64,000 bases of DNA, taken from assembly GCA_000004985.1 (NCBI GenBank), contig GG738857.1. One strand, 5' to 3'. The stretch comes from Naegleria gruberi. Lineage: Eukaryota. The notes below the pieces were generated by a model, which was not told where the DNA came from, ran no database searches, and saw nothing but the letters and a program-made list of their open reading frames with translations. Shown here one piece after another: positions 14,711 through 64,000 of the stretch (the stretch's first letter is position 1; every line of letters starts with the position of its first letter). The position numbers were made by a program, and so were the translations under genes.

Positions 14711-17699
14711 ATGGCCGATCACAAAATGGTCTGCAAATTGGGTTTGTGTTTTGAGATGCGAGATTTAAAATTATTTATTAAATGTGTGATGATTACAGGC
14801 TGATAGGAAATATGTGTTGGAAGCTGTTAAACAAAATGGGTTGGCACTTGAAAATGCCGATGAATCTGGAAGCTGTTAAACAAAATGGATTGGCAATTGA
14901 ATTTGCTGATTCATCATTAAAAAAGATAGAGAAATTGTATTGGAATCTGTTAAACAAAATGGATATGCATTTAAATATGCCGATGAGTTATTGAAAAAAG
15001 ATGAAGAGTTTATATTGGAAGTTGTTAAACAAGATGGATTGGCAATTAAACATGCTGATTCATCATTACAAAAAGATAGAGAAATTGTATTGGAAGCTGT
15101 TAAACAAAATGTATATGCACTTAAATATGCAGATTCATCATTGAAAAAAGATAGAGAAATTATATTGAAATCTGTTAAGAAAAATGGATTGACACTTGAA
15201 TTTACTGATTCATCATTGAAGAAAGATAGAGAAATTGTATCGGAAGCTGTTAAACAACATGGATTGGCAATTGAGTTTGCTGATTCATCATTTAAAAAAG
15301 ATAGAGAAATTGTATTGGAAGCTGTTAAGCAAAATGTGTATGCAATTGAATTTGCTGATTCATCATTGAAGAAAGATAGACAATTTGTACTAGAAGCTGT
15401 TACGAAAAATGGATTAGTACTTGAATATGCTGATTCATCATTGAAGAAAGATAGAGAATTTGTATTAGAATCTGTTACGAAAAATGGATATGCATTTCAA
15501 TATGCTGTTTCATCATTTAAAAAAGATAGAGAAATTGTATTGGAAGCTGTTAAACAAAATGGAGCAGCGCTTAAATATGCTGATGAATCAGTTAAGGGAG
15601 ACAGAGAAATTGTATTGGAAGCTGTTAAACAAAATGGATTGGCATTTAAATATATTTATTCATCATTGAAAAAAAATAGAGAAATTATATTGGAAGCTGT
15701 TAAACAAAATGGATCAGCACTTAAACATGCTGATTCATTTTTGAAGAAAGATAGAGAAATTGTATCGGAAGCTGTTAAACAAAATGGATTGGCACTTCAG
15801 TTTGCTGATTCATCATTTAAAAAAGATAGAGAAATTGTATTGGAATCTGTTAAAAAAAATGGATCAGCACTTGAATATGCTGATTCATCATTTAAAAAAG
15901 ATAGAGAATTTATTTATTTGCTATTTAAATTGAACAAAGAAAATGCAAGAAACTTCTCACCATCTATATCCAAAACCATTGAAGAATGCTTAAATATTCA
16001 GAGAAAGCTGTCAAGCAATATAACTGAACAATACTCCAAAATATTTATGGATGAAAAGGATTTATATTATGCTATTGAATTAACAAGTCTCTTTAATCCA
16101 ACACCAAAAGGTACAATATTCAATTTCAATTCTATCTATACACCAATATTTATTGAAAAATTGATTATTTTTCAAATATTGAAACAAATGAACCATTCAG
16201 AATTGTCTAATGATATTATTGCTCTTATTGATTTACAAAGTACCAAAGCTAACTATTATTTATATTGTTTCAGATTGGACAAATTTCTTGAAGATAATCC
16301 CTGTCAATCAACAAGAATGAAAGATTTGAAGAATATTGTGGAACAAGTTGCAACAAACTTTGAAACGTCATTTTATACAAAACAGGAAATTAATGAAATT
16401 ATGATTTTTGCCAACAAGTGGTTTGAAAATGAGCAAACATTTGAAAATTACAAACAAATAATTTGTAAATATAATGAGCTGAGAGGAGATTTATCAAAAG
16501 TATTCAAATCTCTTAATTATTTCTATAATTATTTCAAAAATGATTATGATTTCATTTCAGTATTAGGATATGGAGGTGAAGGTGTTGCATTCAAAGTATT
16601 TCATAAAAGTAGTAAATCATTAAGGGCTTTAAAATTGAAATATGACCCAGAGGAATCTGAAGAATCAACAAAAGAAACCATTAATTTATTGAAAAGAACA
16701 GACATTGAAGGAAAGATCAAATGTTTTGATTGTGAAATTATTCAAAATCATTTATATTCAGTGATGGAACTTGGAGAGGAATCATTATCAAATTACATTT
16801 CAAGAAATAATGAAAGTGAAATTTATAGAAATGGATTCATTATTAAGGAAAAACTAATTGAAATTCTTGATATATTTATCAAAGTATTGAACTCAGTTCA
16901 ATCAATTCATGATCACAATATTTTACACAGAGATTTAGATCCTCAAAATATTGTCAAAGTTCAAGATTTATACAAAATTATTGATTTTGAAACATCAAGA
17001 GTGATCAAGACAGGTAATTCAATTACAATTGCTCGTGGAAAGTTTGCATACATGTCTCCTGAAGTTTCACATGATAATTATTCTGATGATTTATTGAAAA
17101 GTGGTAATGATGAAAAGCTTGCTCACAATGTTGGACAAATTACCATTTCATGTGATATATTTTCATTGGGATGTATTTTGTTGAAATTATTAACCAATTG
17201 TCCTTTGCAACTATGTTCAACATTTCTGAATGATTCAGATGTCTCTAAATATAATGATAATTACTTGTATTTTAGTGGACATGGAAAATATTTCTATACA
17301 GTTGTGACAACAACAGAGGGAGAAATGAAATTACATTATGCAATTGAAAAACTAATCAATGAAACAATTAATCCAGATTTAGGAGTGAATAACATATTGA
17401 TTAGAAGCATTATTAGCATGATTCAAAGAGATTCATCAAAAAGATTGGATTGTTATTCTCACAAGTTAACAATTGAGAATATTTTGAAATTTTTGAAAGG
17501 AGAAATCAAAGATATCACTTTCAATATTGAAAAACAAGTTGGAGAATTGAAGAAAATATCACCATTAAGAAGTTACTCTCAACTTGTAGAGGAAAATACC
17601 AAACTATTAGAAAGAATTAAATTATTGGAAGAGAACTCTTTATTGGAACGAATTAAAATGTTGGAAGAGGAAATAATAAATCTAAAAACAGACCAATAA
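14711..17699 (+). CDS. DUF4116-repeat / atypical protein kinase / coiled-coil family, copy A. The 5' repeat region is disrupted; the main intact ORF is 14940..17699
   Basis: It shares the family 5' structure: ATG at 14711, GTTTGT donor at 14742 and a TTACAG acceptor before GCTGATAGG at 14799. The segment 14860-14935 is out of frame because of a 26-nt deletion plus a 1-nt loss in an A-run, giving three in-frame stops. The ORF from 14940 on has about 13 25-aa repeats (LEAVKQNGxALxYADSSLKKDREIV), a helical linker, a kinase domain (LGYGGEGVAFKV, HRDLDPQN, DFETSR, YMSPEV) and a C-terminal coiled coil (LLERIKMLEEEIINLKTDQ). Confidence 0.6.
14799..15903 (+). repeat. Tandem 75-bp coding repeat array (25-aa DUF4116-like repeats) of family copy A
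   Basis: Visible 75-nt periodicity (gctgttaaacaaaatgg...gattcatcattgaagaaagatagagaaattgtattggaa). Alternative sense frames stay open across the array, which produces spurious ORFs such as 15484..15669. Confidence 0.85.
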
Positions 17700-18392: not shown

Positions 18393-19865
18393 ATGCCAAG
18401 TTTCATCAAGAGATTATCGTTACGAAATTCATTTCAACAACGTCAATCCATTCACCAAGATCGTAGAAGAACGATCCGAGCCATTCCCTTCTTTCAAGAT
18501 TTTAAAATTGCCATCATTGGAGATGAATGTGTTGGAAAATCGAATATTGCAATGAGATGTGCTGGAAAGGAGACGTTTGTGCCAGAACATGAACCAACGA
18601 TTGAAGATGAGTATAATTGTAAGGTACAGTTTATGTTTAGGTTGCCAGCACCTTTGGTGGAAGAAATAGTTTCGAATGGTGGTGAAGGAGATTCGAATGA
18701 ATTAATGAGAAGTAATCCCAAAGGTGATATTTATGGATATAAACAATTGGCACATGATTTGGAATTAATACCAATGGAATTGAGAAATTATATGAAATTG
18801 GATAATACTTTGCTATCAATTATTCAACAAAAAAGAGAAAAGGAAGAGGAAATGAAAAAAGCACTTGAGGAGAAACAAAAGAAAATGTTTAGTTTATTCA
18901 AGAAGAAATCAACAACGAGTGATTCTCCACAAAAATCTTCTCATGAGCATGCTGGAAATAATCAATCAGGAGAGGATGGAGATTTTGGAAGAGTAATCAC
19001 TGAGGAAGAGGACATTGATGATTATGTGGATGAATTACTTTCGGATGTGGTTTATAATTTCGAGCAGGACATTATTTGTAGAGTGACCATTGTGGATACG
19101 AGTGGGAGATCGGAAGTGAGAAAGGAAGCAACTGATTTGTCTTCAGTGGATGGATACATGTTGGTTTTTGATATGAATAATAAGGCATCATTTGCCAAGA
19201 TTCAGAATTATATTGATGAGTGTAAATTTGCCTACTATGAAAATCCTGCAAGGAAACATTCGGATGCAGCTGCTTCACACAGTTCGAGTAGTGCTCGATT
19301 GTCCTCTGCAAGTAATAATAGTTCAGCAACAATGAATTCAACCTCCTCAGCAAGTGCTGCCTCTTCCAATGTAAATAGTTCTAAACCATCGACAATTGAT
19401 AATCCTCCAATGGTCCTTATAATGAGTAAATGCGATCAGAAACCATCAGCCCTCAAGACCATTAATGCAGAGTATGGCTATGCTCTTGGAGATACTCATC
19501 ATTTTCCATTCTTTGTCACTAGTGCATGTGAAAATTTGAATATCCAAGAAGCATTAGAAGGTCTCCTGAGTGAAATTATCAAGAAGAACATTGAGGAAGG
19601 AGTTTACGAAACTCAAAACAAATCAATGCCAACACCACTACCATCTGCTGATGAAACTTTAAGCAAGACCAATAGTAGAAACTTTAAATTTGAGAATCAA
19701 AATATCAGTATCAGTAGCAATGCCAGTGATTACACTCCTGAATTGTTAACGTTCAGTGTTGGAAATGGAGTTGTTCCACAGAGTCCTCCTGAGAAGAAGA
19801 TTGTTCGTCAGAGTGTCTCTGCAACTCTGAGAAAGTATGTCGTTCAACAATTTAAAAAGAAATAA
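18393..19865 (+). CDS. Ras-superfamily small GTPase-like protein with large insertions and non-canonical catalytic motifs
   Basis: G1 is IAIIGDECVGKS, switch I is PTIEDEY, G3 reads DTSGRSE (Arg where the catalytic Gln sits) and G4 reads SKCD instead of NKxD. There is a roughly 130-aa acidic/K-rich insert and an S/N/A-rich low-complexity segment. The ATG at 18393 is preceded by caaa. Confidence 0.6.
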   Translation: MPSFIKRLSLRNSFQQRQSIHQDRRRTIRAIPFFQDFKIAIIGDECVGKSNIAMRCAGKETFVPEHEPTIEDEYNCKVQFMFRLPAPLVEEIVSNGGEGDSNELMRSNPKGDIYGYKQLAHDLELIPMELRNYMKLDNTLLSIIQQKREKEEEMKKALEEKQKKMFSLFKKKSTTSDSPQKSSHEHAGNNQSGEDGDFGRVITEEEDIDDYVDELLSDVVYNFEQDIICRVTIVDTSGRSEVRKEATDLSSVDGYMLVFDMNNKASFAKIQNYIDECKFAYYENPARKHSDAAASHSSSSARLSSASNNSSATMNSTSSASAASSNVNSSKPSTIDNPPMVLIMSKCDQKPSALKTINAEYGYALGDTHHFPFFVTSACENLNIQEALEGLLSEIIKKNIEEGVYETQNKSMPTPLPSADETLSKTNSRNFKFENQNISISSNASDYTPELLTFSVGNGVVPQSPPEKKIVRQSVSATLRKYVVQQFKKK

Positions 19866-27871: not shown

Positions 27872-30574
27872 AATGTCTGAAGATTGGGTTTGTGTTTTGT
27901 GATGCGATTTTATTAATGGGGGTGTGATGACTATCACAAATAATAGGCCGATAGGACATATGTGTTAGAAGCTGTTAAACAACGTGGAAATGCACTTAAA
28001 TATGCCGATGAAGCATTTAAAAAAGATAGAGAAATTGTATTGGAGGCTGTTAAAAAAAACGGATTAATAATTCAATATGCTGATTCATCATTGAAAAGAG
28101 ATAGAGAAATTGTATTGGAAGCTGTTAAACAGCGTGGATATGCAATTCAATATGCTGATTCATTGTTAAAGAAAGATAGAGAAATTGTATTGGAATGTGT
28201 TAAACAAGATGGATTGGCACTTGAATATGTTGATTTATCATTACAAAAAGATAGAGAAATTGTGTTGGCAGCTGTTAAACAAAATGGATTGGCACTTCGA
28301 TATGCTGATTCATCATTGAAAAAAGATAGAGAAATTGCATTGGAATCTGTTAAACAACGTGGATATGCAATTCAATATGCTGATTCGTTGTTAAAGAAAG
28401 ATAGAGAAATTGTATTGGAAGCAGTTAAACAAGATGGATTGGCACTGCAATATGCTTATTTTCAAAATGACAGAGAAATTGTATTGGAAGCTGTTAAGCA
28501 AAATGGATCAGCAGTTGAATACGCTGATTCATCATTGAAAAAAGATAGAGAATTTATATTGGAATCTGTTAAACAACATGGATTGACTCTTAAATATGCT
28601 GATTCATTATTGAAGAAAGATAGAGAAGTTGTTTCGGAAGCTGTTAAACAAGATATATTGGCACTTAAATATGTTGATTCATCATTTAAAAGAGATAGAG
28701 AATTTATATTGGAAGCAGTTAAACAACATTCATTGGCACTTGAATATGCTGATTCATCTTTACAAAGAGATATCGTTTTTACTTATTCACTTTTTAAATT
28801 GAACAAAGAAAATGCAAGAAAGTTCTCACCCTCTATAACCAAAACCATTGAAGAATCCATTAATCTTCAGAGAAAGCTGTCAAGCAATATAATTGAACAA
28901 TACTCCAAAATATTTATGGATGAAAAGGATTTATATTATGCTATTGAATTAACAAGTCTCTTTAATCCAACACCAAAAGGTACAATATTCAATTTCAATT
29001 CTATCTATACACCAATATTTATTGAAAAATTGATTATTTTTCAAATATTGAAACAAATGAACCATTCAGAATTGTCTAATGATATTATTGCTCTTATTGA
29101 TTTACAAAGTACCAAAGCTAACTATTATTTATATTGTTTCAGATTGGACAAATTTCTTGAAGATAATCCCTGTCAATCAACAAGAATGAAAGATTTGAAG
29201 AATATTGTGGAACAAGTTGCAACAAACTTTGAAACGTCATTTTATACAAAACAGGAAATTAATGAAATTATGATTTTTGCCAACAAGTGGTTTGAAAATG
29301 AGTAAACATTTGAAAATTACAAACAAATAATTTGTAAATATAACGAGCTGAGAGGAGATTTATCAAAAGTATTCAAATCTCTCAATTATTTCTATAATTA
29401 TTTCAAAAATGATTATGATTTCATTTCAGTATTAGGATATGGAGGTGAAGGTGTTGCATTCAAAGTATTTCATAAAAGTAGTAAATCATTAAGGGCATTA
29501 AAATTAAAATATGACCCAGAGGAATCTGAAGAATCAACAAAAGAAACCATTAATTTATTGAACAGAACAGACATTGAAGGAAAGATCAAATGTTTTGATT
29601 GTGAAATTATTCAAAATCATTTATATTCAGTGATGGAACTTGGAGAGGAATCATTATCAAATTACATTTCAAGAAATAATGAAAGTGAAATTTATAGAAA
29701 TGGATTCATTAAGAAGGAAAAGTTGATTGAAATTCTTGAAATATTTATCAAAGTATTGAACTCAGTTCAATCAATTCATGATCACAATATTTTACACAGA
29801 GATTTAGATCCTCAAAATATTGTCAAAGTTCAAGATTTATACAAAATTATTGATTTTGAAACATCAAGAGTTATCAAGACAGGTAATTCAATTACAATAG
29901 CTCGTGGAAAGTTTGCATACATGTCTCCTGAAGTTTCACATGATAATTATTCTGATGATTTATTGAAAAGTGGTGATGATGAAAAACTTGCTCACAATGT
30001 TGGACAAATTACCATTTCATGTGATATATTTTCATTGGGATGTATTTTATTGAAATTATTAACAAATTGTCCATTACAACTATGTTCAACATTTGTTAAT
30101 GATTCAGATGTCTCAAAATATAATGACAAGTATCCATATTTTAGTGGTCATGGAAAATATTTCTATACAGTTGTAACAACAACAGAGGGAGAAATGAAAT
30201 TACATTATGCAATTGAAAAACTAATCAATGAAACGATTAATCCAGATTTAGGAGTGAATAACATATTAATTAGAAGCATTATTAGCATGATTCAAAGAGA
30301 TTCATCAAAAAGATTGGATTGTTATTCTCACAAGTTAACAATTGAGAATATTTTGAAATTTTTGAAAGGTGAAATCAAAGATATCACTTTGAATATTGAA
30401 AAACAAGTTGGAGAATTGAAGAAAATCTCACCATTAAGAAGTTACTCTCAACTTGCTGAAGAAAATAACAAAATTACAGATGAAAAAACCAAACTTTCGG
30501 ATGAAAATAGCAACCTGTTAGAAAGAATTAAAATGTTGGAAGAGGAAATAAGAAAACTCACACAAACCATATGA
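27872..30574 (+). pseudogene. DUF4116-repeat / atypical kinase / coiled-coil family, copy B, interrupted by an in-frame TAA at 29303..29305. Exon 1 is 27872..27886 and the intron is 27887..27945
   Basis: The micro-exon ATGTCTGAAGATTGG (MSEDW) is followed by a GTTTGT...AATAG intron and an exon 2 in frame from GCCGATAGG. ORFs 27962..29305 and 29558..30574 lie in one frame. They are separated only by a TAA where every other copy has CAA (ENE*TFENYKQ against ENEQTFENYKQ). There is also an in-frame deletion in one repeat (YAYFQNDREIV). Confidence 0.7.
27946..28790 (+). repeat. Tandem 75-bp coding repeat array of family copy B (about 11 repeats)
   Basis: Periodic LEAVKQxGxALxYADSSLKKDREIV units at nucleotide level. 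Confidence 0.85.
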
Positions 30575-44235: not shown

Positions 44236-45747
44236 ATGTATAAACTAACTCATCTTCCTCCTGAAATTATCATTAAAATCATCGAGTATCATGTAGAAGG
44301 CTTGGGTATTTCCCTCCTCGGAAACAAACTTGTTATTCTCGAATCAATTCAATCAGCCTTGTTGTGGGAAAGAATTTGCAAAGCCTTTTCGAATGAGTCA
44401 CTTATACGAAACTATTTGACTGACAACTTTTGGAAAAAGATTATTCTTGAAAACTTTGTGAGGGAAACTATCGGATTGGACAGCCAAACTCTGAAATCAA
44501 CACCTAGGAGGAAAATTATTGAACATATCAAATCAAAACAAGATGTAAAAACACTCTTGGTCAATTATCGAGAATTCTTAAAATTAATTACTGACTTTCC
44601 ACACTCAATTTCAATCTATCAACGATACTTCACTAGAAAGGATGTATTGGAAACATTTCAAATTGTAGTATTGGGACATCATCAAGCAGGAAAATCACAA
44701 CTCGTCAATTCATTTCTTCAAATTGAAACAAATCAATTGACCTCTCACAATAATGAAGTTTACACTCGTGTTGAGAAACATCCAATGACTCCTAATCAAA
44801 TGTTTCGAATGCAAGTAATGGACACTCACTTTCTTCATACCTGTTCTCAGCATATTTCACAAGCTCATGCCATTCTACTGGTTTGTTCACATTGTCAATT
44901 GGAGGAAACCTTGTTCGAAACTGAGCAAATTCTCAAACGATGCATTGAAATTAAACAATCATCTTCCTTTCCACTCATTGTAGCCTTGAACAAATCCGAC
45001 GAATCCAGAAAGAGTCTCAAGAAGAGACGTTCCAACAATGATTACAACAATAACTCGAGTCCTTCAACACCTAAATCACCAACCTCTAATAACTGCTGTC
45101 ATGGCTCATACCTACTTGCAGATCCATTCCTATCTTCACCCCCACCAATGTCCTCTTCATCCTCTCCATCATCGACGATATTCAGCAGTCCTCCTCCAAT
45201 ATGTTGTTTCTCTGCTCCAATCATTACAGGAAACAGCCTTCTACTGAGCAATAGTTATAATAACAATAGCAACTGTACTCATCACTTGATGAATACGAGT
45301 TCTGCGACCTTATCTACCATAGCCACAACAATAACAACAACTACAGCCATGAGTACTTCCAATATTTCTTCATCATACAATGGAACACCAACAAGCCTTC
45401 TATTGGGTTCTTCTTCTTCCTTCATTCAAAACAACGTTGGAGGAGGTAATTCTTCAACATGTTGTTCTCATCATCAGCATCATGTAAGAACAGAGGAGGA
45501 TGAATACAAAATGATGGAAAATCTATTAATTCGCTACGGAATGATCAATTATCGAATCATTAGAACGAGTGGTAAGGAGAGGTCGAATGTTGTGGAGGCT
45601 TTTGATGAGTGTGTGTTGCGAGCTAGCTTGAATCATGCCAAGTTGATGGTCGATGTGATTGATGCGGCTGTTGTTCATCACGTTGAAGCAACAGAAAAAT
45701 TCTTTAAAGCAGGCATGCTACAGAGAAAACGATGTGATTTATTGTGA
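44236..45747 (+). CDS. F-box-like N-terminus fused to a Ras-superfamily GTPase-like domain, with an S/T/N-rich low-complexity region
   Basis: LPPEIIIKIIEY is F-box-like. G1 is GHHQAGKS and G4 is LNKSDE. The G3 region is MDTHF. Followed by poly-S/T/N tracts. Confidence 0.6.
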   Translation: MYKLTHLPPEIIIKIIEYHVEGLGISLLGNKLVILESIQSALLWERICKAFSNESLIRNYLTDNFWKKIILENFVRETIGLDSQTLKSTPRRKIIEHIKSKQDVKTLLVNYREFLKLITDFPHSISIYQRYFTRKDVLETFQIVVLGHHQAGKSQLVNSFLQIETNQLTSHNNEVYTRVEKHPMTPNQMFRMQVMDTHFLHTCSQHISQAHAILLVCSHCQLEETLFETEQILKRCIEIKQSSSFPLIVALNKSDESRKSLKKRRSNNDYNNNSSPSTPKSPTSNNCCHGSYLLADPFLSSPPPMSSSSSPSSTIFSSPPPICCFSAPIITGNSLLLSNSYNNNSNCTHHLMNTSSATLSTIATTITTTTAMSTSNISSSYNGTPTSLLLGSSSSFIQNNVGGGNSSTCCSHHQHHVRTEEDEYKMMENLLIRYGMINYRIIRTSGKERSNVVEAFDECVLRASLNHAKLMVDVIDAAVVHHVEATEKFFKAGMLQRKRCDLL

Positions 45748-46000: not shown

Positions 46001-48516
46001 TTATTGTTTGAGTTTTCTATTTTCCTCTTCCAATATTTTAATTCTTTCTAACAGGTTGCTATTTTCCATGGTGTTTTCATCCAAAAGTTTATATAGGTTG
46101 GTGTTTTCCTCTGCGAGTTTGGTATTTTCATCCGAAAGTTTATCAACTTCCTCTGCAAGTTGAGAGTAACTTCTTAATGGTGATATTTTCTTCAATTCTC
46201 CAACTTGTTTTTCAATATTCAAAGTGATATCTTTGATTTCACCTTTCAAGTATTTCAAAATATTCTCAATGGTTAACTTGTGAGAATAACAATTCAATCT
46301 TTTTGATGAATCTCTTTGAATCATGCTAATAATGCTTCTAATCAATATATTATTCACTCCTAAATCTGGATTAATTGATTGATTGATTAGTTTTTCAATT
46401 GCATAATGTAATTTCATTTCTCCCTCTGTTGTTGTCACAACTGTATAGAAATATTTTCCATGTCCACTTAAATATGGATACTTGTCATTATATTTAGAGA
46501 CATCTGGATCATTAACAAATGTTGAACATAGTTGCAGAGGACAATTTGCTAATAATTTCAATAAAATACATCCCAATGAAAATATATCACATGAAATGGT
46601 AATTTGTCCAACATTGTGAGCAAGCTTTTCATCATTATCACTTTTCAATAAATCATCAGAATAATTATCATGTGAAACTTCAGGAGACATGTAGGCAAAC
46701 TTTCCACGAGCAATTGTAATTGAATTACCTGTCTTGATAACTCTTGATGTTTCAAAATCAATTATCTTGTATAAATCTTGAACTTTGACAATATTTTGAG
46801 GATCTAAATCTCTGTGTAAAATATTGTGATCATGAATTGATTGAACTGAGTTCAATACTTTGATAAATATATCAAGAATTTCAATCAACTTTTCCTTAAT
46901 AATGAATCCATTTCTATAAATTCCATCTTGATTATTTCTTGAAATATAATTTGATAATGATTCCTCTCCAAGTTCCATCACTGTATACAAATGATTTTGA
47001 ATAATGTCACAATCAAAACATTTGATCTTTCCTTCAATGTCTGTTCTTTTCAATAAATTAATGGTTTCTTTTGTTGATTCTTCAGATTCCTCTGGGTCAT
47101 ATTTTAATTTTAATGCCCTTAATGATTTACTACTTTTGTGAAATACTTTGAATGCAACACCTTCACCTCCATATCCTAATACTGAAATGAAATCATAATT
47201 ATATTTGAAATAATTATAGAAATAATTGAGAGCTTTGAATACTTTTGATAAATCTCCTCTCAGCTCATTATATTTACAAATTATTTGTTTGTAATTTACA
47301 AATGTTTTCTCATTTTCAAACCACTTGTTGGCAAAATTCATAATTTCATTAATTTCCTGTTTTGAATAAAATGATGTTTCGAAATTTGTTGCAACTTGTT
47401 CCACAATATTCTTCAAATCTTTCATTCTTGTTGATTGACAGGGATTATCTTCAATAAATTTGTCCAATCTGAAACAAAATAAATAATAGTTAGCTCTTTC
47501 TGAAAGAACATTTTCAGTGGATAATTCTGAATGGTTCATTTGTTTCAATATTTGAAAAAAAATCAACTTTTCAACAAATATTGGTGTGTAGATAGGATTA
47601 AAATTGAATATTGTACTTTTTGGTGTTGGATTAAAGAGACTTGTTAATTCAATACCATAATATAAATCCTTTTCATCCATAAATATTTTGGAGTATTGTT
47701 CAATTATATTGCTTGACAGCTTTGTCTGAAGATTAATGGATTCTTCAATGGTTTTGGTTATAGAGGGTGAGAACCTTCTTGCATTTTCCTTGTTCAATTT
47801 AATTAATAAATAAATAAATATACTATCTTTTTTAAATGATTCATCAGCATGCTTAAGTGCCAATCCAGCTTGTTTAACAGATTCCAATATAAATTCTCTA
47901 TCTTTTTTCAATGATGAATCAGCATATTCAAGTGCATATCCATCTTGTTTGACAGACTCCAATACAATTTCTCTATCTTTTTTAAATGATGAATCAGCAA
48001 ATTCAAGTGCCAATCCATCTTGTTTGACAGATTCCAATACAATTTCTCTATCTTTTTTAATATTGAATCAGCAAATTCAAGTGCCAATCCATGTTGTTTA
48101 ACAGATTCCAATATAAATTCTCTATCCTTTTTCAATGATGAATCAGCATATTTGAGTGCTGGTCCATAGCGTATAACAGCTTCCAATATAATTTCTCTAT
48201 CTTTTTCCAATGATGAATCAACATATAAAAGTGTCAATCCATTTTGTTTAATAGCTTCCAACACAATTTCTCTATCTTTTTTAAATGCTGGATCAGCATA
48301 TTGAAGTGCCAACCCATTTTGTTTAACAGCTTCCAATACAATTTCTCTATCTTTTTTCAATGATGAATCAGCATTTTCAAGTGTTGATCCATTTTGTTTA
48401 ACAGCTTTCAACACATATTTCCTATCGGCCTATTGTTGCAATCATGAATCATCACACCAATAAAAATAATTATTTTCTCCACAGCAACAAATACCAACCC
48501 ACTCGTTTTTGTTCAT
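46001..48516 (-). pseudogene. DUF4116-repeat / atypical kinase / coiled-coil family, copy C, with a frameshift near 48058. Exon 1 is complement(48499..48516) and the intron is 48430..48498
   Basis: The micro-exon ATGAACAAAAACGAGTGG (MNKNEW) is followed by a GTTGGT...CAACAATAG intron. ORFs 47908..48414 and 46001..48037 overlap in different frames. A 1-nt loss in tcttttttaatattgaatca (consensus tcttttttaaatgatgaatca) at about 48058 explains the shift. The repeat array is shorter (about 8 units). The C-terminal tail has extra LxEEN(T/S)xL mini-repeats. Confidence 0.65.
47830..48429 (-). repeat. Tandem 75-bp coding repeat array of family copy C (about 8 units)
   Basis: Same unit. Includes the frameshifted unit near 48058. 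Confidence 0.8.
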
Positions 48517-49598
48517 TTTTTTAAAGGTATTCTAGACCATCACATTCCGAATCAACTTGATGATTTTTACACCCAAAAAGAACAGTTTCAACTATTACAG
48601 ATGGGTTTTTTTGTTATTGGACGCCATCACATGATCTGTTAAGATTTGCATCCTCTTCTTGTTGATCCATTATGAATTGCTCCTCATCATCTGATTCCGA
48701 GGATCAGAACCAAGCTCTCTCAATCAAATCATCCACCATTAAATCTTGCTCATCTACTTCTGAATTCAACTTCTTAGTCACTCCTTGTTGTGTTTGATAA
48801 GGAATTTATTGCCTAATTTTTGATATATATTTTCAAATGTATGGAGTGTTCCTTTGTGTTGGTGTTTTCTCTATTTTTTTAGGCTTTGAAATAAGGCGCT
48901 AAGATCCACTCATTGATACTGATGAACCATGATCTCAATGAGGTCGAGGAAGATGGATCGAAGAAGAAGCCTATTGATGAATCATCACATAATTGGCATC
49001 ATGATGAAAATAGCAGTCTGGTTGACAGCTGTGTATGTGTAAATAACATCATTATTACTATTCATCTAGCGTTTACTCAATTCATATTCATTCTTATCAT
49101 GTGATTACATAGCTTATTAACCATTACGAACCGTGTGGTCCCATTCTTGCTCTGAATATAAAATTAAAAACCGATCAAAGTTGGTGGCAAGAATGAAAAA
49201 TTTACAAAATCGATCACAAATAAAATAAAATTCAAGTTTTGGTCACCAAAACGACCAAAACGCAGACCAAACAAGTTATTCAAGTTATTGTTGCTTTGAT
49301 TTTTAAATAATATATTTGATAAAATAAAAAGAATAAAAACGGAGCGCGGGAATAAAATTGTAGATGAAGCTTAACATATTGTAAATTTATTGTAAAGTAA
49401 TCTTTTTATGGTTGCATACTTTAATAACAAGCATCATGAATTGCTAGGCAACTCAAGAGTCACTTTAGGGTTGTAATATTTGGTATTGTTGCTGTGTTAC
49501 TATTATCTTTTTTAGAATGCATCCTTTTTTGTCATTTCCATTTCAGTCTTTGTGAAGAAACCTTTCGAATAGAGAAATTGCAAACAAAGAAACAAAAA

Positions 49599-50726
49599 AT
49601 GGGTGGAAAGCTCTCTTCGAATCACAATCATCATCAACACTCCAACAACACTCCACTTCTGCAACAAACTAAACATTCGAATAACAATGACAATCATCAG
49701 AGAATAGTTTTACTGGGAAATACTTCAAGTGGAAAGTCAACTATTTGTGAAATGATTCAATATCAGAAACAACATCAAGCAGATAAATCATGCAATACTT
49801 ACAACCTATTCTATAAGGTAGATTCGAATACAATTTCAAAAACTATTATTGAACAGATATTGTTTGCATCAAAGGATATATCTATTGAGGCAATTATTCG
49901 AGAATATACAAATGATTGCAATAATTTTGATAATTCTACACTTTTTGCATTGTGGAATGATCAGAAATTTAGAAATATTTATCAGAGCTGTCAAGATTCT
50001 CTCAATTTATTCGAAAATGTTGACATTTTTGTAAGGAAACTTAAGAATCATGAAAGTTTCATTCCAGATATTTACATTAAGGGAAATTCTTCTGGAATTA
50101 CAGAGTATGACATTAATTTTGATGACAAGAAAGTGACATTTGTGACTGCAGGTGGAAAAACAAGTGAAAGAAAAAAGTGGAATTTCTGCTTGCAAGGAAA
50201 TGTTTCCGTTTTGGTTTATGTTGTTTCGTTGGCAGAATTCAATCAATCAGGTTATGGAGATGAGAAGGTGAATAGAATGGACGAAAGTTTGAAACTTTAC
50301 AAGGAATTGATGACTCGTGTTTCGAATAGTGGTAATAATACGAGAGTTGTCTTACTGTTTACCAAACCAGATATAATGATGAGGAAACTGAGGAGTTACA
50401 TTGAATTTGGAAGATTATTCGAAACTGAAACACTTACTGATCTTTCACGAATTGTAAACGATTATCACGAAAGGGATGTTCTCAATACAATTATATCGAG
50501 TTTTTTAACCGAAACAAATAATATTTATGGGAAAATACCAGAATATCACATTATTCAGTCGATATCAGAATTGGACATTTCACAACTCGCCAAACTAATG
50601 TTGAATAATGAGAAAAATAGACATTATATTTCTAATTGCTTGTTTGAGAAAATATCGCTTGTGAGATGTTATCAATTAGTGATGGCTCAACAATTGACCG
50701 ATTTAACAATTAAGTGTCAATTATAA
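49599..50726 (+). CDS. Heterotrimeric G-protein alpha-subunit-like protein, highly divergent
   Basis: MGGKLSS N-terminus with the myristoylation Gly2. G1 is LLGNTSSGKST (compare LLGAGESGKST). VTAGGKTSERKKW sits where DVGGQRSERKKW belongs. LLFTKPD sits where NKxD belongs. The real start is the ATG at 49599; the ORF-track start at 49494 is a TTG. Confidence 0.8.
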   Translation: MGGKLSSNHNHHQHSNNTPLLQQTKHSNNNDNHQRIVLLGNTSSGKSTICEMIQYQKQHQADKSCNTYNLFYKVDSNTISKTIIEQILFASKDISIEAIIREYTNDCNNFDNSTLFALWNDQKFRNIYQSCQDSLNLFENVDIFVRKLKNHESFIPDIYIKGNSSGITEYDINFDDKKVTFVTAGGKTSERKKWNFCLQGNVSVLVYVVSLAEFNQSGYGDEKVNRMDESLKLYKELMTRVSNSGNNTRVVLLFTKPDIMMRKLRSYIEFGRLFETETLTDLSRIVNDYHERDVLNTIISSFLTETNNIYGKIPEYHIIQSISELDISQLAKLMLNNEKNRHYISNCLFEKISLVRCYQLVMAQQLTDLTIKCQL

Positions 50727-50957: not shown

Positions 50958-53900
50958 TTAATTTTGTTTGAGTTTTCTATTTTCCTCTTCTAATACTTTA
51001 ATTCTTTCTAATAGGTTGGTATTTTCCTCTACAAGTTGAGAGTAGCTCCTTAATGGTGAGATTTTCTTCAATTCTCCAACTTGTTTTTCAATATTGAAAG
51101 TGATATCTTTGATTTCACCTTTCAAAAATTTCAAAATATTCTTAATTGTTAACTTGTGAGAATAACAATTCAATCTTTTTGATGAATCTCTTTGAATCAT
51201 GCTAATAATGCTTCTAATCAATATGTTATTCACTCCTAAATCTGCATTAATCGTTTCATTGATTAGTTTTTCAATTGCATAATGTAATTTCATTTCTCCC
51301 TCTGTTGTTGTCACAACTGTATAGAAATATTTTCCATGTCCACTAAAATATGGATACTTGTCATTATATTTAGAGACATCTGGATCATTAACAAATCTTT
51401 CACACAATTGCAAAGGACAATTGGTTAATAATTTCAACAAAATGCATCCCAATGAAAATATATCACATGAAATGGTAATTTGTCCAACATTGTGAGCAAG
51501 TTTTTCATTGTCATCACTTTTCAATAAATCATCAGAATAATTATCATGTGAAACTTCAGGAGACATGTATGCAAACTTTCCACGAGCAATTGTAATTGAA
51601 TTACCTGTCTTGATAACTCTTGATGTTTCAAAATCAATAATTTTGTAATGATCTTGAACTTTGACAATATTTTGAGGATCTAAATCTCTGTGTAAAATAT
51701 TGTGATCATGAATTGATTGAACAGAGTTCAATACTTTGATAAATATTTCAAGAATTTCAATCAACTTTTCCTTATTAATGAATCCATTTCTATAAATTCC
51801 ATCTTGATTATTTCTTGAAATATAATTTGATAATGATTCCTCTCCAAGTTCCATCACTGAATATAAATGATTTTGAATAATTTCACAATCAAAACATTTG
51901 ATCTTTCCTTCAATGTCTGTTCTGTTCAATAAATTAATGGTTTCTTTTGTTGATTCTTCAGATTCCTCTGGATTATATTTTAATTTTAATGCCCTTAATG
52001 ATTTACTACTTTTGTGAAATACTTTGAATGCAACACCTTCACCTCCATATCCTAATACTGAAATGAAATCATAATTATATTTGAAATAATTATAGAAATA
52101 ATTGAGAGCTTTGAATACTTTTGATAAATCTCCTCTCAGCTCATTATATTTACAAATTATTTGTTTGTAATTATCAAATGTTTTCTCATTTTCAAACCAC
52201 TTGTTGGCAAAAATCATAATTTCATTAATTTCCTGTTTTGTATAAAATGACGTTTCAAAGTTTGTTGCAACTTGTTCCACAATATTCTTCAAATCTTTCA
52301 TTCTTGTTGATTGAGAAGGATTATCTTCAAGAAATTTATCCAATCTGAAACAAAATAAATAATAGTTAGCTTTGGTGCTTTGTAAATCAATTAGAGCAAT
52401 AATATCATTAGACAATTCTGAATGGTTCATTCGTTTCAATATTTGAAAAATAATCAATTTTTCAACAAATATTGGTGTGTAGATAGGATTAAAATTGAAT
52501 ATTGTACTTTTTGGTGTTGGATTAAAGAGACTTGTTAATTCAATAGCATAATATAAATCTTTTTCATCCATAAATATTTTGGAGTATTGTTCAATTATAT
52601 TGCTTGACAGCTTTTTCTGAATATTTAAGCATTCTTCAATGGTTTTGGATATAGAAGGTGAGAACTTTCTTGCATTTTCTTTGTTCAATTTAAATAGCAA
52701 ATAAATAAATTCTCTATCTTTTTTAAATGATGAATCAGCGTATTCAAGTGCTCGTACATTTTGTTTAACAGCTTCCAATACAATTTCTCTATCTTTTTTC
52801 AATAATGAATCAGCATATTTAAGTGCATATCCATCTTGTTTGACAGTTTCCAATATAAATTCTCTATCTTTTTTAAATGATGAATCAGCGTATTCAAGTG
52901 CTCGTACATTTTGTTTAACAGCTTCCAATACAATTTCTCTATCTTTTTTCAATAATGAATCAGCATATTCAAGTGTCAATCCATTTTGTTTAACAGTTTC
53001 CAATATAATTTCTCTATCTTTTTTAAATGATGAATCAGCATATTCAAGTGCCAATCCATTTTGTTTAACAGCTTCCAATATAATTTCTCTATCTTTTTTC
53101 AATAATGAATCAGCATATTCAAGTGCCAATCCATTTTGTTTGACAGCTTCCAATATAAATTCTCTATCTTTTTTAAATGATGAATCAGCATATTGAAGTG
53201 CTCGTACATTTTGTTTAACAGCTTCCAATATAATTTCTCTATCTTTTTTCAATGATGAATCAGCATATTGAAGTGCTCGTCCATTTTGTTTAACAGCTTC
53301 CAATATAAATTCTCTATCTTTTAGAAATGATGAATCAGCATATTTAAGTGCATACCCATCTTGTTTAACAGCTTCCAATATAAATTCTCTATCTTTTTTA
53401 AATGATGAATCAGCATATTTAAGTGCATATTCATTTTGTTTAACAGATTCCAATATAATTTCTCTATCTTTTTTAAATGATGAATCAGCATATTTAAGTG
53501 CCAATCCATTTTGTTTAACAGCTTCCAATATAATTTCTCTATCTTTTTTCAATATTGAATCAGCGTATTCAAGTGCCCACCCATTTTGTTTAACAGCTTC
53601 CAATATAAATTCTCTATCTTTTTTAAATGATGAATCAGCATATTGAAGTGCCAATCCATTTTGTTTAACAGCTTCCAATATAATTTCTCTATCTTTTTTA
53701 AATGATGAATCAGCATATTCAAGTGCCAATCCATGTTGTTTAACAGCTTCCAATACAATTTCTCTATCTTTTTTAAATGATGAATCAGCGTATTCAAGTG
53801 CATATCCATTTTGTTTAACAGCTTCCAATATAATTTCTCTATCTTTTTTCAATAATGAATCAGCGTATTCAAGTGCTGGTCCATAGCGTTTAACAGCTTC

Positions 53901-54533
53901 CAATACAATTTCTCTATCTTTTTTAAATGATGAATCAGCATATTGAAGTGCCCACCCATTTTGTTTAACAGCTTCCAATACAATTTCTCTATCCTTTTTA
54001 AATGATGAATCAGCATCTTCAAGTGCCGATCCATTTTGTTTAACAGCTTCCAATATAATTTCTCTATCTTTTTTAAATGATGAATCAGCAAATTCAAGTG
54101 CCAATCCATTTTGTTTAACAGCTTCCAATATAATTTCTCTATCTTTTTTAAATGATGAATCAGCGTATTGAAGTGCCAATCCATAGTGTTTAACAGCTTC
54201 CAATATAATTTCTCTATCTTTTTTCAATAATGAATCAGCGTATTCAAGTGCTGGTCCATAGCGTTTAACAGCTTCCAATACAATTTCTCTATCTTTTTTA
54301 AATGATGAATCAGCATATTGAAGTGCCCACCCATTTTGTTTAACAGCTTCCAATACAATTTCTCTATCCTTTTTAAATGATGAATCAGCATCTTCAAGTG
54401 CCGATCCATCTTGTTTAACAGCTTCCAACACATATTTCCTATCGGCCTATTGTTGTGATCATGATCATCACATTTTATATAATAATTATTTCACCACACA
54501 GCAACAAATACCAACCCACTCGTTTATGTTCAT
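50958..54533 (-). CDS. DUF4116-repeat / atypical kinase / coiled-coil family, copy D, the only apparently intact member. Exons complement(join(50958..54446,54516..54533))
   Basis: The micro-exon ATGAACATAAACGAGTGG (MNINEW) is followed by a 69-nt GTTGGT...AATAG intron (54447..54515). The exon-2 ORF encodes about 23 25-aa repeats, a linker, a kinase domain with the same atypical motifs as the other copies, and a coiled coil (LLERIKVLEEENRKLKQN). It ends in TAA followed by the 3' flank ttgtttgagttttctattttcc shared with the other copies. Confidence 0.8.
52715..54446 (-). repeat. Tandem 75-bp coding repeat array of family copy D (about 23 units, highly homogenised)
   Basis: Near-identical 75-nt units. 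Both alternative sense frames and one antisense frame are stop-free, which gives spurious ORFs 53321..54433 and 52840..53196. Confidence 0.9.
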
Positions 54534-61465: not shown

Positions 61466-64000
61466 TTATTGTTTGAGTTTTCTTATTTCTTCTTCCAACA
61501 TTTTAATTCTTTCTAATAGGTTGCTATTTTCCATTGAAAGGTTGGTGTTTTCCTCTGCAAGTTTGTCAACATCCTCTAATAGGTTGGTATTTTCATCCGA
61601 AAGTTTATCAACTTCCTCTGCCAGTTGAGAGTAACTTCTTAATGGTGAGATTTTCTTCAATTCTGCAATTTCCTTTTCAATATTCAAAGTGATATCTTTG
61701 ATCTCACCTTTCAAGTATTTCAAAATATTCTCAATTGTTAACTTGTGAGAATAACAATCCAATCTTTTTGATGAATCTCTTTGAATCATGCTAATAATGC
61801 TTCTAATTAATATGTTATTCACTCCTAAATCTGGATTAATTGATTCATTGATTAGTTTTTCAATTGCATAATGTAATTTCATTTCTCCCTCTGTTGTTGT
61901 TATAACTGTATAGAAATATTTTCCATGACCACTAAAATATGGATAATTATCATTATATTTCGAGACATCTGAATCATTAACAAATCTTTCACACAATTGC
62001 AAAGGACAATTGGTCAATAATTTCAATAAAATACATCCCAATGAAAATATATCACACGAAATGGTAATTTGTCCAACATTGTGAGCAAGCTTTTCATTGT
62101 CATCACTTTTCAATAAATCATCAGAATAATTATCATGTGAAACTTCAGGAGACATGTATGCAAACTTTCCACGAGCAATTGTAATTGAATTACCTGTCTT
62201 GATAACTCTTGATGTTTCAAAATCAATAATTTTGTATAGATCTTGAACTTTGACAATATTTTGAGGATCTAAATCTCTGTGTAAAATATTGTGATCATGA
62301 ATTGATTGAACTGAGTTCAATACTTTGATAAATATATCAAGAATTTCAATCAACTTTTCCTTATTAATGAATCCATTTCTATAAATTCCATCTTGATTAT
62401 TTCTATAAATATAATTTGATAATGATTCCTCTCCAAGTTCCATCACTGTATACAAATGATTTTGAATAATTTCACAATCAAAACATTTGATCTTTCCTTC
62501 AATATCTGTTCTTTTCAATAAATTAATGGTTTCTTTTGTTGATTCTTCAGATTCCTCTGGATTATATTTTAATTTTAACGCCCTTAATGATTTACTACTT
62601 TTGTGAAATACTTTGAATGCAACACCTTCACCTCCATATCCTAATACTGAAATAAAATCATAATTATATTTGAAATAATTATAGAAATAATTGAGAGCCT
62701 TGAATACTTTTGATAAATCTCCTCTCAGCTCATTATATTTACACACTATTTGTTTGTAATTATCAAATGTTTTCTCATTTTCAAACCACTTGTTGGCAAA
62801 AATCATNNNNNNNNNNNNNNNNNNNNNNNNNNNNNNNNNNNNNNNNNNNNNNNNNNAGCCATAAATATTTTGGAGTATTTTTCAATTATATTGCTTGACA
62901 GTTTTGTCTGAATATTTAAGCATTCTTCAATGGTTTTGGATATAGAAGGTGAGAACTTTCTTGCATTTTCTTTGTTCAATTTAAATAGCAAATAAATAAA
63001 TTCTCTATCTTTTTTAAATGATGAATCAACATATTTAAGTGCCAATATATCTTGTTTAACAGCTTCCGAAACAACTTCTCTATCTTTTTTAAATGATGAA
63101 TCAGCATATCTAAGTGTTGATCCATGTTGTTTAACAGTTTCCAATATAAATTCTCTATCTTTTTTCAATAATGAATCAGCATATTCAAGTGCTCGTACAT
63201 TTTGTTTAACAGCTTCCAATATAATTTCTCTATCTTTTTTAAATGATGAATCAGCATATTCAAGTGCCAATCCATTTTGTTTAACAGCTTCCAATATAAT
63301 TTCTCTATCGTTTTTAAATGATGAATCAGCATATTCAAGTGCCAACCCATTTTGTTTAACAGCTTCCAATATAAATTCTCTATCTTTTTTAAATGATGAA
63401 TCAGCATATTCAAGTGCCAATCCATTTTGTTTAACAGCTTCCAATATAATTTCTCTATCTTTTTTAAATGATGAATCAGCATATTCAAGTGCTCGTACAT
63501 TTTGTTTAACAGCTTCCAATATAATTTCTCTATCTTTTTTAAATGATAAATCAGCATATTGAAGTGCTCGTCCATGTTGCTTAACAGCTTCCAATATAAA
63601 TTCTCTATCTTTTAGAAATGATGAATCAGCATATTTAAGTGCATACCCATCTTGTTTAACAGCTTCCAATATAAATTCTCTATCTTTTTTAAATGATGAA
63701 TCAGCATATTTAAGTGCATATCCATTTTGTTTAACAGCTTCCAATATAAATTCTCTATCTTTTTTAAATGATGAATCAGCATATTTAAGTGCCAATTCAT
63801 TTTGTTTAACAGCTTCCAATATAATTTCTCTATCTTTTTTAAATGATGAATCAGCATATTCAAGTGCCCATCCATTTTGTTTAACAGCTTCCAATATAAT
63901 TTCTCTATCTTTTTTAAATGATTAATCAGCATATTCAAGTGCCCACCCATTTTGTTTAACAGCTTCCAATACAATTTCTCTATCTTTTTTAAATGATGAA
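61466..64000 (-). CDS. DUF4116-repeat / atypical kinase / coiled-coil family, copy E. It is 5'-partial (runs off the window), is interrupted by an assembly gap, and has an in-frame TAA in the repeat array at about 63921
   Basis: ORF 61466..62806 covers the kinase and coiled coil (tail with extra DKLSDENTNLLE / LAEENTNL mini-repeats). ORF 62803..63894 covers the linker and repeats. The two are separated by 50 N. Upstream, gattaatca stands where the consensus is gattcatca (ADSSF becomes AD*SF). Confidence 0.6.
62807..62856. other. Assembly gap (50 N) inside family copy E
   Basis: Run of n. Compared with copy D, about 480 nt of linker/kinase N-lobe coding sequence is missing here, so the true gap size is unknown. 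Confidence 0.95.
62995..64000 (-). repeat. Tandem 75-bp coding repeat array of family copy E, continuing past the window end
   Basis: Same 75-nt periodic unit as the other copies, with alternative-frame ORFs 63165..63575 and 63612..63974. Confidence 0.85.

What the first reader, a model, noticed from the sequence alone, without database searches (positions are those of the whole stretch)
29303..29305. Single nonsense codon (CAA to TAA) splits family copy B into two in-frame ORFs
ORFs 27962..29305 and 29558..30574 are in the same frame. They are separated only by a TAA at the codon where copies A, C, D and E encode Gln (FENE*TFENYKQ against FENEQTFENYKQ). Copy B is therefore a very young pseudogene, a sequencing error, or a locus that yields a truncated repeat-only protein.
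Basis: seen in the sequence. Interest (0 to 1): 0.5.

Follow-up and report, generated by a model that had tools for sequence, protein, structure and literature searches.

The report
Single stop codon in amoeba kinase paralogue
One of five neighbouring copies of a Naegleria gruberi repeat-plus-kinase gene carries a single, very recent C-to-T change that makes a stop codon; this is an ordinary young pseudogene, null allele or base-call error, which the public gene model hides behind an invented intron.

Summary
The TAA at 29303-29305 is real in this sequence. It is the only interruption of an otherwise open 880-codon gene: ATG 27873, a 59-nt intron, about 11 DUF4116 repeats, a 210-aa linker, a TTK-like kinase and a coiled coil. 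The window is the Naegleria gruberi NEG-M reference scaffold, and copy B is NAEGRDRAFT_65322.

Copy A has CAA (Gln), but C, D and E have AAA (Lys).

A and B are identical over 450 nt (28894-29343) except for this one base, against 14 differences expected. This points to a recent gene-conversion tract followed by C>T, or to a base-call error. B shows no relaxed constraint: 4 synonymous and 0 nonsynonymous lineage-specific changes, and kinase dN/dS against A of 0.09.

TAA is the normal terminator here (16 of 20 ORFs), so reassignment or readthrough is unlikely. The GenBank model skips the stop with a 450-nt in-frame GT-AG "intron" (28980-29429). That stretch is constrained coding sequence in the paralogues, so the intron is almost certainly an artefact.

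Expected product: a 457-aa repeat-only fragment with no kinase.

A real mutation and a sequencing error cannot be separated without reads. The finding is ordinary and of low interest.

The parts
27873..27887 (+). Exon 1 of copy B (ATG TCT GAA GAT TGG = MSEDW)
   Evidence: Sequence. It matches the N-terminus of GenBank model P0002 / XP_002679513.1. Analogous short first exons lie upstream of copies A, C and D.
27888..27946 (+). 59-nt GT...AG intron 1 of copy B
   Evidence: GTTTGTG...AATAG. The equivalent region in A, C and D also holds stop codons between a short ATG exon and 'ADR(K/T)YVLEAVKQ'.
27947..28798 (+). DUF4116 repeat array of copy B (about 11 units of 75 nt / 25 aa)
   Evidence: Pfam PF13475, E = 1.8e-179, 581.6 bits against a cut-off of 24.9. 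Tandem Repeats Finder: period 75, 10.9 copies, 27961-28772.
28799..29428 (+). 210-codon linker domain (LNKENA...DYDFIS) with no Pfam match; it contains the stop
   Evidence: Coordinates. It is conserved at 85% in P0009 and 41% in P0003. dN/dS is 0.24-0.29 against copy D.
28894..29343 (+). 450-nt tract identical to copy A (16025-16474) except for base 29303; inferred recent gene-conversion tract
   Evidence: One difference was seen against 14.2 expected from the A-B divergence downstream (P = 1e-5). Upstream of the tract B is C-like and A is D-like.
29303..29305 (+). Premature TAA (followed by A). The homologous codon is CAA in copy A and AAA in copies C, D and E
28980..29429 (+). In-frame 450-nt GT-AG 'intron' used by the GenBank/JGI model NAEGRDRAFT_65322 to skip the stop; judged spurious
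   Evidence: P0002 jumps from ...LFNPTPK to VLGYGGEG. The same stretch is exon in the paralogue models P0001 and P0009 and is under purifying selection. 147 different in-frame GT..AG pairs could skip the stop.
29414..30076 (+). Protein kinase domain (TTK/Mps1-like), downstream of the stop. Motifs: GYGGEG 29435-29452, ALKLK 29495-29509, HRDLDPQN 29795-29818, DFE 29852-, SPE 29924-
   Evidence: Pfam PF00069, E = 9.2e-25, 88 bits against a cut-off of 31.7. Best solved relatives are TTK, E = 8e-14. Motif coordinates.
29633..29635 (+). First in-frame ATG after the stop. It lies after the Gly-loop and the beta3 Lys, and four out-of-frame ATGs precede it
30572..30574 (+). Natural terminator of copy B (TGA), after the C-terminal heptad-like LLERIKMLEEEIRKL segment
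14711..17699 (+). Paralogue A, the closest to B. It has CAA at 16434-16436. Its N-terminal repeats carry a 26-nt deletion (junction 14866/14867) and a 1-nt deletion (about 14917/14918), with three stops between them
46001..48429 (-). Paralogue C. It has AAA at the site and a 1-nt deletion in the repeat array at about 48059/48060 that shifts the frame
   Evidence: A-run spacing is 224 instead of 225.
50958..54446 (-). Paralogue D, the only copy in the window that is uninterrupted from exon 2 to its stop. It has 23 repeat units and AAA at the site
61466..64000 (-). Paralogue E. It has AAA at the site, a 50-N scaffold gap at 62807-62856 in the linker, and a 5' end that runs off the window

Best explanation
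Copy B (NAEGRDRAFT_65322) belongs to a Naegleria gruberi-specific family. Each protein has an N-terminal DUF4116 alpha-solenoid repeat array, a 210-aa linker, a TTK/Mps1-like kinase domain and a C-terminal coiled coil.

Shown: one base, T at 29303, turns a codon that is CAA in the nearest paralogue into TAA. It is the only defect in an 880-codon gene.

Inferred:
- A 450-nt stretch of B was recently overwritten by gene conversion from an A-type copy.
- A C>T transition then created the stop. B is therefore a very young disabled paralogue, either fixed or a heterozygous null allele in strain NEG-M.
- Translation would end at TAA-A, the genome's usual terminator. The product would be a 457-aa protein holding the repeats and 80% of the linker.
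- No kinase would be made. The next in-frame ATG lies beyond the ATP-binding Gly-loop and Lys, and out-of-frame ATGs come before it.
- The intron in the public gene model is an artefact of a gene caller avoiding the stop.
For: - A single stop in an otherwise open frame.
- A = CAA, B = TAA, C/D/E = AAA.
- A and B are identical over 450 nt except at 29303, with 14.2 differences expected (P = 1e-5).
- B switches from C-like to A-like at the tract edge.
- B-specific changes are 4 synonymous and 0 nonsynonymous, giving an omega upper bound of 0.19. Kinase dN/dS against A is 0.09.
- TAA ends 16 of 20 long ORFs, mostly as TAA-A.
- The first in-frame ATG is at 29633.
- Other copies carry lesions that base-calling cannot produce or is unlikely to produce: a 26-nt deletion in A and 1-nt deletions in A and C. 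Disablement is therefore common in this family.
- The stretch spliced out of the model is exon in paralogue models and is constrained.
Against: - No read-level or independent-strain data could be obtained. The window is the same assembly as the GenBank record.
- The complete absence of relaxed constraint in B is what an intact gene with one miscalled base would also show.
- The family is hard to assemble: there is a 50-N gap in copy E and a 450-nt stretch shared exactly by A and B. Local coverage and consensus quality may therefore be poor.
- About 7% of random single-base changes in this AT-rich CDS create a stop, so an error-made stop is not far-fetched.
Confidence: 0.6

Rival explanations
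1. Sequencing or consensus error. The true base at 29303 is C, and copy B is an intact, functional DUF4116-kinase gene.
For: - B shows purifying selection throughout and no other defect.
- The T is the only difference from A in 450 nt.
- This is a draft scaffold with a gap inside a sister copy.
- Near-identical paralogues make read placement and coverage unreliable.
Against: - All the other long ORFs in the window, up to 1687 aa, are uninterrupted. Consensus errors are therefore rare here.
- Sister copies A and C carry disabling indels, including a 26-nt deletion that cannot be a base-call error. Real decay therefore occurs in this family.
- A consensus T in a multi-read Sanger assembly needs several concordant miscalls or very low coverage.
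Confidence: 0.3
2. The stop is real and the truncated 457-aa DUF4116-only protein is a selected product, for example a scaffold or a dominant-negative partner of the kinase paralogues.
For: - The upstream ORF, start codon and 5' intron are intact.
- DUF4116 arrays form a self-contained repeat fold, predicted as an alpha-solenoid (PMC8078820).
Against: - The stop cuts inside the conserved linker domain, not at a domain boundary.
- The 422 downstream codons are still perfectly kinase-like. The change is therefore too recent for any selection on the truncated form to be visible.
Confidence: 0.05
3. The TAA is removed by splicing. This would use either the annotated 450-nt intron (28980-29429) or the new GTAAAC donor that the C>T change creates at 29302 (for example a 51-nt in-frame intron ending at 29352). 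A shortened kinase protein would then still be made.
For: - GT-AG boundaries exist, and the GenBank model uses them.
- The mutation creates GA|GTAAAC.
Against: - 147 in-frame GT..AG pairs span the stop by chance, so such a pair is not evidence.
- The 'intron' is coding and constrained in the paralogues and is annotated as exon in P0001 and P0009.
- It is 450 nt long, against 59 nt for the family's real intron.
- It would remove 150 conserved residues.
Confidence: 0.03
4. TAA is decoded as an amino acid, either by ciliate-type reassignment to Gln or by programmed readthrough, so that full-length protein is made.
For: The homologous codon in copy A is Gln, which is the amino acid that reassigned TAA encodes in ciliates and diplomonads (general knowledge).
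Against: - TAA terminates 16 of 20 long ORFs in the window, including four of the five family copies.
- The context TAA-A matches the genuine terminators.
- No other in-frame TAA occurs in any family copy.
- No known readthrough motif follows the stop.
Confidence: 0.01

Closest known systems
XP_002671661.1 'TTK family protein kinase' of N. gruberi (P0009) and XP_002679639.1 (P0001), which are intact paralogues
   Same: They share the linker, the kinase and the coiled coil, and P0009 also has the DUF4116 repeats. They are 85-94% identical to B, and both have Gln at the site (FENEQTFENYKQ).
   Different: They read straight through the 150 codons that the copy-B model splices out, and they have no stop. 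They lie outside this window: P0001 elsewhere on the same scaffold, P0009 on another scaffold.
Human TTK/Mps1 kinase domain (e.g. PDB 3cek, 5ap3)
   Same: It is the best solved-structure match, E about 1e-13 over residues 36-251. The Gly-loop, beta3 Lys, HxD and DFx motifs align.
   Different: The similarity is remote. The catalytic loop is HRDLDPQN (Asp where Ser/Thr kinases have Lys), and DFG is replaced by DFE. The DUF4116 array and the linker are absent from TTK. Orthology and activity were not tested.
Young duplicated (unprocessed) pseudogenes and segregating null alleles in expanded gene families, such as single-nonsense olfactory-receptor alleles (general knowledge)
   Same: A single disabling substitution in one member of a clustered paralogous family, with the rest of the ORF intact, and gene conversion among the copies.
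   Different: Whether the lesion is fixed, heterozygous or an assembly error is unknown here. No relaxed constraint is detectable yet.
Stop-codon reassignment TAA/TAG to Gln (genetic code 6: ciliates, some diplomonads)
   Same: An in-frame TAA where a homologue has Gln.
   Different: TAA is the main genuine terminator in this window, and this is a single occurrence. It is a look-alike, not a member.

Membership tests
DUF4116 repeat proteins (Pfam PF13475) | Match to the Pfam model above the gathering score, in tandem 25-aa units | tested here: met
   581.6 bits against a cut-off of 24.9, in 10 stretches. The 75-nt period occurs 10.9 times.
Eukaryotic protein kinase superfamily (Pfam PF00069) | Match to the Pkinase model above the gathering score | tested here: met
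   88 bits against a cut-off of 31.7, for the ORF downstream of the stop.
Eukaryotic protein kinase superfamily (Pfam PF00069) | Canonical catalytic motifs: GxGxxG, VAIK Lys, HRDLKxxN, DFG, APE | tested here: inconclusive
   GYGGEG, ALKLK, the HRD Asp and the DFx Asp are present. The catalytic-loop Lys is Asp (HRDLDPQN), DFG is DFE and APE is SPE. Activity cannot be judged from sequence.
TTK/Mps1 kinase family | Closest similarity to TTK, and orthology by phylogeny or reciprocal best hit | tested here: inconclusive
   TTK chains are the top PDB hits at 8e-14, ahead of CDPK and PKR at 1e-10 or weaker. One paralogue is named 'TTK family' by its source. No phylogeny was run.
Duplicated (unprocessed) pseudogene | Full-length homology to functional paralogues plus a disabling lesion in the sequence | tested here: met
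   83-87% amino-acid identity to A and D over the whole length. There is a single TAA.
Duplicated (unprocessed) pseudogene | The lesion is real in the organism and is not an assembly error | not testable with these tools
   No reads or second assembly were available. The metagenome scan gave 0 hits and the exact-protein look-ups found nothing.
Duplicated (unprocessed) pseudogene | Relaxed selective constraint (dN/dS approaching 1) on the disabled lineage | tested here: not met
   There are 0 nonsynonymous and 4 synonymous B-specific changes, giving an omega upper bound of 0.19. This fits only a very recent event or an error.
Stop-codon reassignment (TAA = Gln) | TAA occurs in frame at conserved sense positions in many genes and is not used as a terminator | tested here: not met
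   TAA ends 16 of 20 long ORFs. Only this one in-frame TAA occurs in the family.
Spliceosomal intron containing the stop (as in GenBank model XP_002679513.1) | The sequence is non-coding: it is not conserved as ORF or under codon-level constraint in paralogues, and its size is typical of the genome | tested here: not met
   The stretch is open and constrained in A, C and D (omega 0.24-0.49). It is exon in P0001 and P0009. It is 450 nt long, against 59 nt for the family's real intron. GT-AG pairs are abundant by chance.

The most novel reading that the evidence does not exclude
The C>T change is real. It creates both a premature stop and a new GTAAAC 5' splice site at 29302, so copy B would be caught in the act of 'intronisation' of coding sequence. 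That is, part of the linker exon is now spliced out in frame, by the 51-nt 29302-29352 candidate or by the annotated 28980-29429 intron, which rescues a shortened kinase. Alternatively, the truncated DUF4116-only protein is retained as a regulator of its kinase paralogues.
Probability: 0.04. Interest if true: 0.45.

Novelty: new member of a known kind. Interest (0 to 1): 0.12.

Why it matters
The finding matters little beyond housekeeping.

If the T is real, it is a snapshot of birth-and-death evolution with gene conversion in a lineage-specific kinase expansion of a free-living amoeba. Of the five local copies, one is cleanly intact, one has a nonsense codon, two have indels and one is unresolved.

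Its practical value is as an annotation correction. The RefSeq/UniProt protein XP_002679513.1 / D2V8Y1 (730 aa) is a model artefact that lacks 150 conserved residues. The locus should be described either as a pseudogene or truncated gene, or, if the base is an error, as an 880-aa protein.

No open biological question becomes testable through it.

Tried and rejected
1. TAA read as Gln, or readthrough. Rejected because TAA-A is the standard terminator in the window.
2. The stop lying in a genuine intron. Rejected as unlikely. The skipped stretch is constrained coding sequence and is exon in paralogue models. 147 chance in-frame GT..AG pairs exist.
3. Reinitiation giving a kinase-only protein. 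Rejected because the first in-frame ATG (29633) lies after the Gly-loop and Lys, behind four out-of-frame ATGs.
4. Independent sequence of the locus. An exact-pattern scan of metagenome contigs allowing C, T or A at the site gave 0 hits. Exact-protein look-ups of P0002 and of the 313-aa post-stop ORF found nothing on record.
5. A homologue search with the linker of copy D returned nothing. Pairwise BLASTP shows clear homologues, so this null is a miss of the word index, not evidence of absence.
6. Literature. The 2010 genome paper and a 2011 review are not held, so coverage, heterozygosity and intron statistics could not be cited. No paper mentions the locus accessions. The DUF4116 literature offers only a predicted alpha-solenoid fold.
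7. -1 frameshifting at the A_AAA_AAG heptamers left by the 1-nt deletions in A and C. Noted but not pursued. In copy A an upstream stop would be reached first.
8. Structure prediction was not run. Only a shallow, near-identical alignment was available, and it would not bear on the verdict.

Full report
**What the window is.** The kinase half of the split ORF matches two 'predicted proteins' of Naegleria gruberi at 94-100% identity, both on a 573,072-bp scaffold. The 100% match, P0002, is EFC46769.1 / XP_002679513.1 / UniProt D2V8Y1, locus NAEGRDRAFT_65322. The window therefore appears to be the NEG-M reference assembly itself. G+C is 27-37%. The neighbouring ORFs encode ordinary eukaryotic signalling proteins: an NHL-repeat kinase, a C2-domain protein, Ras/Roc GTPases, a G-alpha subunit and an F-box/LRR protein.

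**Check of the observation.** ORFs 27962..29305 and 29558..30574 exist and are in the same frame. Translation shows that one TAA at 29303-29305 is the only stop between 27947 and the terminal TGA at 30572-30574. In sequence of this composition, 422 codons would stay open by chance with P about 6e-19. The downstream frame is therefore preserved coding sequence.

tblastn finds five copies:
- A, about 14711-17699, plus strand.
- B, 27873-30574, plus strand.
- C, 46001-48429, minus strand.
- D, 50958-54446, minus strand.
- E, 61466 to beyond 64000, minus strand.

At the homologous codon A has CAA. C, D and E have AAA (Lys), with FENEKTF(V/D)NYKQ. Gln also occurs in two paralogues outside the window (P0001, P0009), and Lys in the 50%-identical P0003. 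The site is therefore a variable K/Q position. TAA is one step from either codon.

**Gene anatomy.**
- The true CDS starts at ATG 27873. Exon 1 encodes MSEDW and is followed by a 59-nt GT-AG intron (27888-27946). Copies A, C and D have equivalent 5' structures.
- Exon 2 encodes about 11 DUF4116 units of 25 aa (PF13475, E = 1.8e-179; 75-nt period, 10.9 copies). This repeat family has been predicted to form an alpha-solenoid (PMC8078820).
- A 210-aa linker without a Pfam match follows (28799-29428). It is conserved in P0009 at 85% and in P0003 at 41%.
- Next comes a protein-kinase domain (PF00069, E = 9e-25), whose nearest solved relatives are TTK/Mps1 at E about 1e-13.
- The protein ends in a heptad-like C-terminal tail.
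- The stop lies at codon 169 of the 210-codon linker.
- Read-through length would be 880 aa. The truncated product is 457 aa.

**How young is the lesion?**
- Over 28894-29343 (450 nt), B is identical to A (16025-16474) apart from base 29303. A and B differ at 3.2% of sites in the kinase region, so 14.2 differences were expected (P(<=1) = 1e-5).
- Immediately upstream of the tract, B shares its variants with C while A shares its variants with D. Inside the tract both are A/D-like.
- The simplest reading is a recent gene conversion of B by an A-type donor carrying CAA, followed by a C>T transition. The alternative is a miscall.
- In the kinase half, dN/dS for A against B is 0.09.
- In 434 codons where the other copies agree, B has 4 synonymous and 0 nonsynonymous private changes. 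This bounds omega on the B lineage below about 0.19.
- B has therefore spent no detectable time evolving neutrally.

**Alternatives that would make the stop harmless.**
1. *Reassignment or readthrough.* TAA terminates 16 of 20 long ORFs in the window, mostly as TAA-A, which is also the context at 29303-29306. No other in-frame TAA occurs in the family.
2. *Splicing.* The GenBank model P0002 (730 aa) jumps from ...LFNPTPK to VLGYGGEG. It removes 28980-29429, a 450-nt, phase-1, in-frame GT-AG interval that contains the stop.
   - This interval is open and under purifying selection in A, C and D (omega 0.24-0.49).
   - It is annotated as exon in P0001 and P0009.
   - It is far longer than the family's real 59-nt intron.
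   - 147 in-frame GT..AG pairs that leave no stop can be drawn across the TAA by chance.
   - I conclude that the intron is a gene-caller artefact.
   - The C>T change does create GA|GTAAAC at 29302. This could in principle act as a donor, for example for a 51-nt in-frame removal ending at 29352. Nothing supports its use.
3. *Reinitiation.* The first in-frame ATG after the stop is at 29633. It lies beyond the GYGGEG loop and the ALKLK lysine, and four out-of-frame ATGs precede it.

**Real mutation or error?** This cannot be decided here. The window is the same assembly as the database record. A scan of metagenome contigs for the site with C, T or A found nothing, and the exact-protein look-ups found nothing.

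In favour of a real lesion:
- Every other long ORF in the 64 kb, up to 1687 aa, is uninterrupted, so consensus errors are rare here.
- Sister copies carry their own disabling lesions.
  - Copy A has a 26-nt deletion at 14866/14867 and a 1-nt deletion at about 14917/14918, with three stops in the out-of-frame segment between them.
  - Copy C has a 1-nt deletion at about 48059/48060.
  - A 26-nt deletion is not a base-calling artefact.

In favour of an error:
- B has no other sign of decay.
- A 50-N gap in copy E shows that this family was hard to assemble.
- The 450-nt stretch shared exactly with A could disturb read placement.
- About 7% of possible single-base changes in this CDS create a stop.

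I put the probabilities at about 0.6 for a real lesion (fixed or heterozygous), 0.3 for an error, and 0.1 in total for the other readings: a selected truncated product, splicing, or recoding.

**Most likely mechanism.** The shown steps are the TAA, its frame, the 450-nt identity with A and the purifying-selection statistics. The inferred steps are as follows.
- Gene conversion of B by an A-type donor was followed by a C>T change.
- Translation terminates at TAA-A and gives a 457-aa DUF4116-plus-partial-linker fragment.
- Kinase output from this locus is lost, with paralogues, notably the intact D, covering the function.
- Whether the transcript is degraded by a long-3'UTR type of nonsense-mediated decay was not tested.

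**Comparison with known things.** The protein family is a lineage-specific DUF4116-TTK-like kinase expansion, and one paralogue is named 'TTK family protein kinase' by its source. Membership of DUF4116 and of the protein-kinase superfamily is met by Pfam thresholds. TTK orthology and catalytic competence are open, because the motifs are HRDLDPQN and DFE instead of HRDLKxxN and DFG. The event itself is a standard young duplicated-gene disablement. The one classical pseudogene criterion that was tested and not met is relaxed constraint, which fits extreme youth or an error.

**Verdict.** The phenomenon is ordinary, so interest is low. The useful by-products are an annotation correction and a description of concerted evolution and decay in this gene cluster.

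Noticed in passing
window 28980-29429: The public gene model for copy B (XP_002679513.1 / D2V8Y1, 730 aa) removes 150 conserved codons as an in-frame GT-AG 'intron' that happens to contain the stop. It is almost certainly an annotation artefact that hides the nonsense codon.
   Followed up: yes
window 28894-29343 and 16025-16474: Copies A and B are 100% identical for 450 nt apart from the nonsense base, while they are 3.2% divergent downstream. B is C-like and A is D-like just upstream. This is the signature of a recent gene-conversion tract among the paralogues.
   Followed up: yes
window 14799-14940 (copy A): Copy A has a 26-nt deletion fusing two repeat units (junction 14866/14867) and a 1-nt deletion at about 14917/14918. 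Together they restore the frame (-27 nt), but three stops (first TAA at about 14877) lie in the 50-odd nt between them. A therefore also looks disabled at its 5' end, unless it starts downstream or the segment is spliced out.
   Followed up: partly
window about 48053-48060, minus strand (copy C): Copy C has a 1-nt deletion at the same position of the repeat unit as in copy A (TCA..TT[T/G]AAAAAAGAT becomes TTAAAAAAGAT). The spacing of the A-runs is 224 instead of 225 nt. It shifts the frame between the first about 5 repeats and the rest of the gene. The resulting A_AAA_AAG heptamer is formally a -1 slippery site that would restore LKKDREIV; this was not pursued.
   Followed up: partly
window 62807-62856: A 50-N scaffold gap sits inside the linker of copy E, so E's integrity and the apparent frame change there cannot be judged. 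E also runs off the window end at 64000.
   Followed up: yes
window 29795-29866 and the homologous sites in A, C, D and E: All family kinases have HRDLDPQN (Asp in place of the catalytic-loop Lys), DFE instead of DFG and SPE instead of APE. They may be atypical kinases or pseudokinases, yet they are under strong purifying selection (omega about 0.1-0.25).
   Followed up: partly
window 14867-15908, 27961-28772, 47823-48426, 52705-54443, 62996-64000: The number of 75-nt DUF4116 units varies widely between copies: about 14, 11, 8, 23 and at least 13. Units within D and E are 90-92% identical at the DNA level. This indicates unequal crossing-over and concerted evolution within the arrays.
   Followed up: partly
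window 29302-29307: The C>T change that makes the stop also creates GTAAAC, a plausible 5' splice-site hexamer that is absent from all the other copies (GCAAAC or GAAAAC).
   Followed up: partly
window 30560-30574: Copy B ends ...RKLTQTI-TGA, whereas C and E end ...RKLKQ-TAA. B has lost the family's usual TAA terminator and runs two codons longer.
   Followed up: no
window 2052-7044, 18393-19865, 44236-45747, 49494-50726: The DUF4116-kinase copies are interspersed with other signalling genes: an NHL-repeat kinase and an NHL-like neighbour, two Ras/Roc-type GTPases and a G-alpha subunit. The region is a signalling-gene-rich stretch of the scaffold.
   Followed up: no
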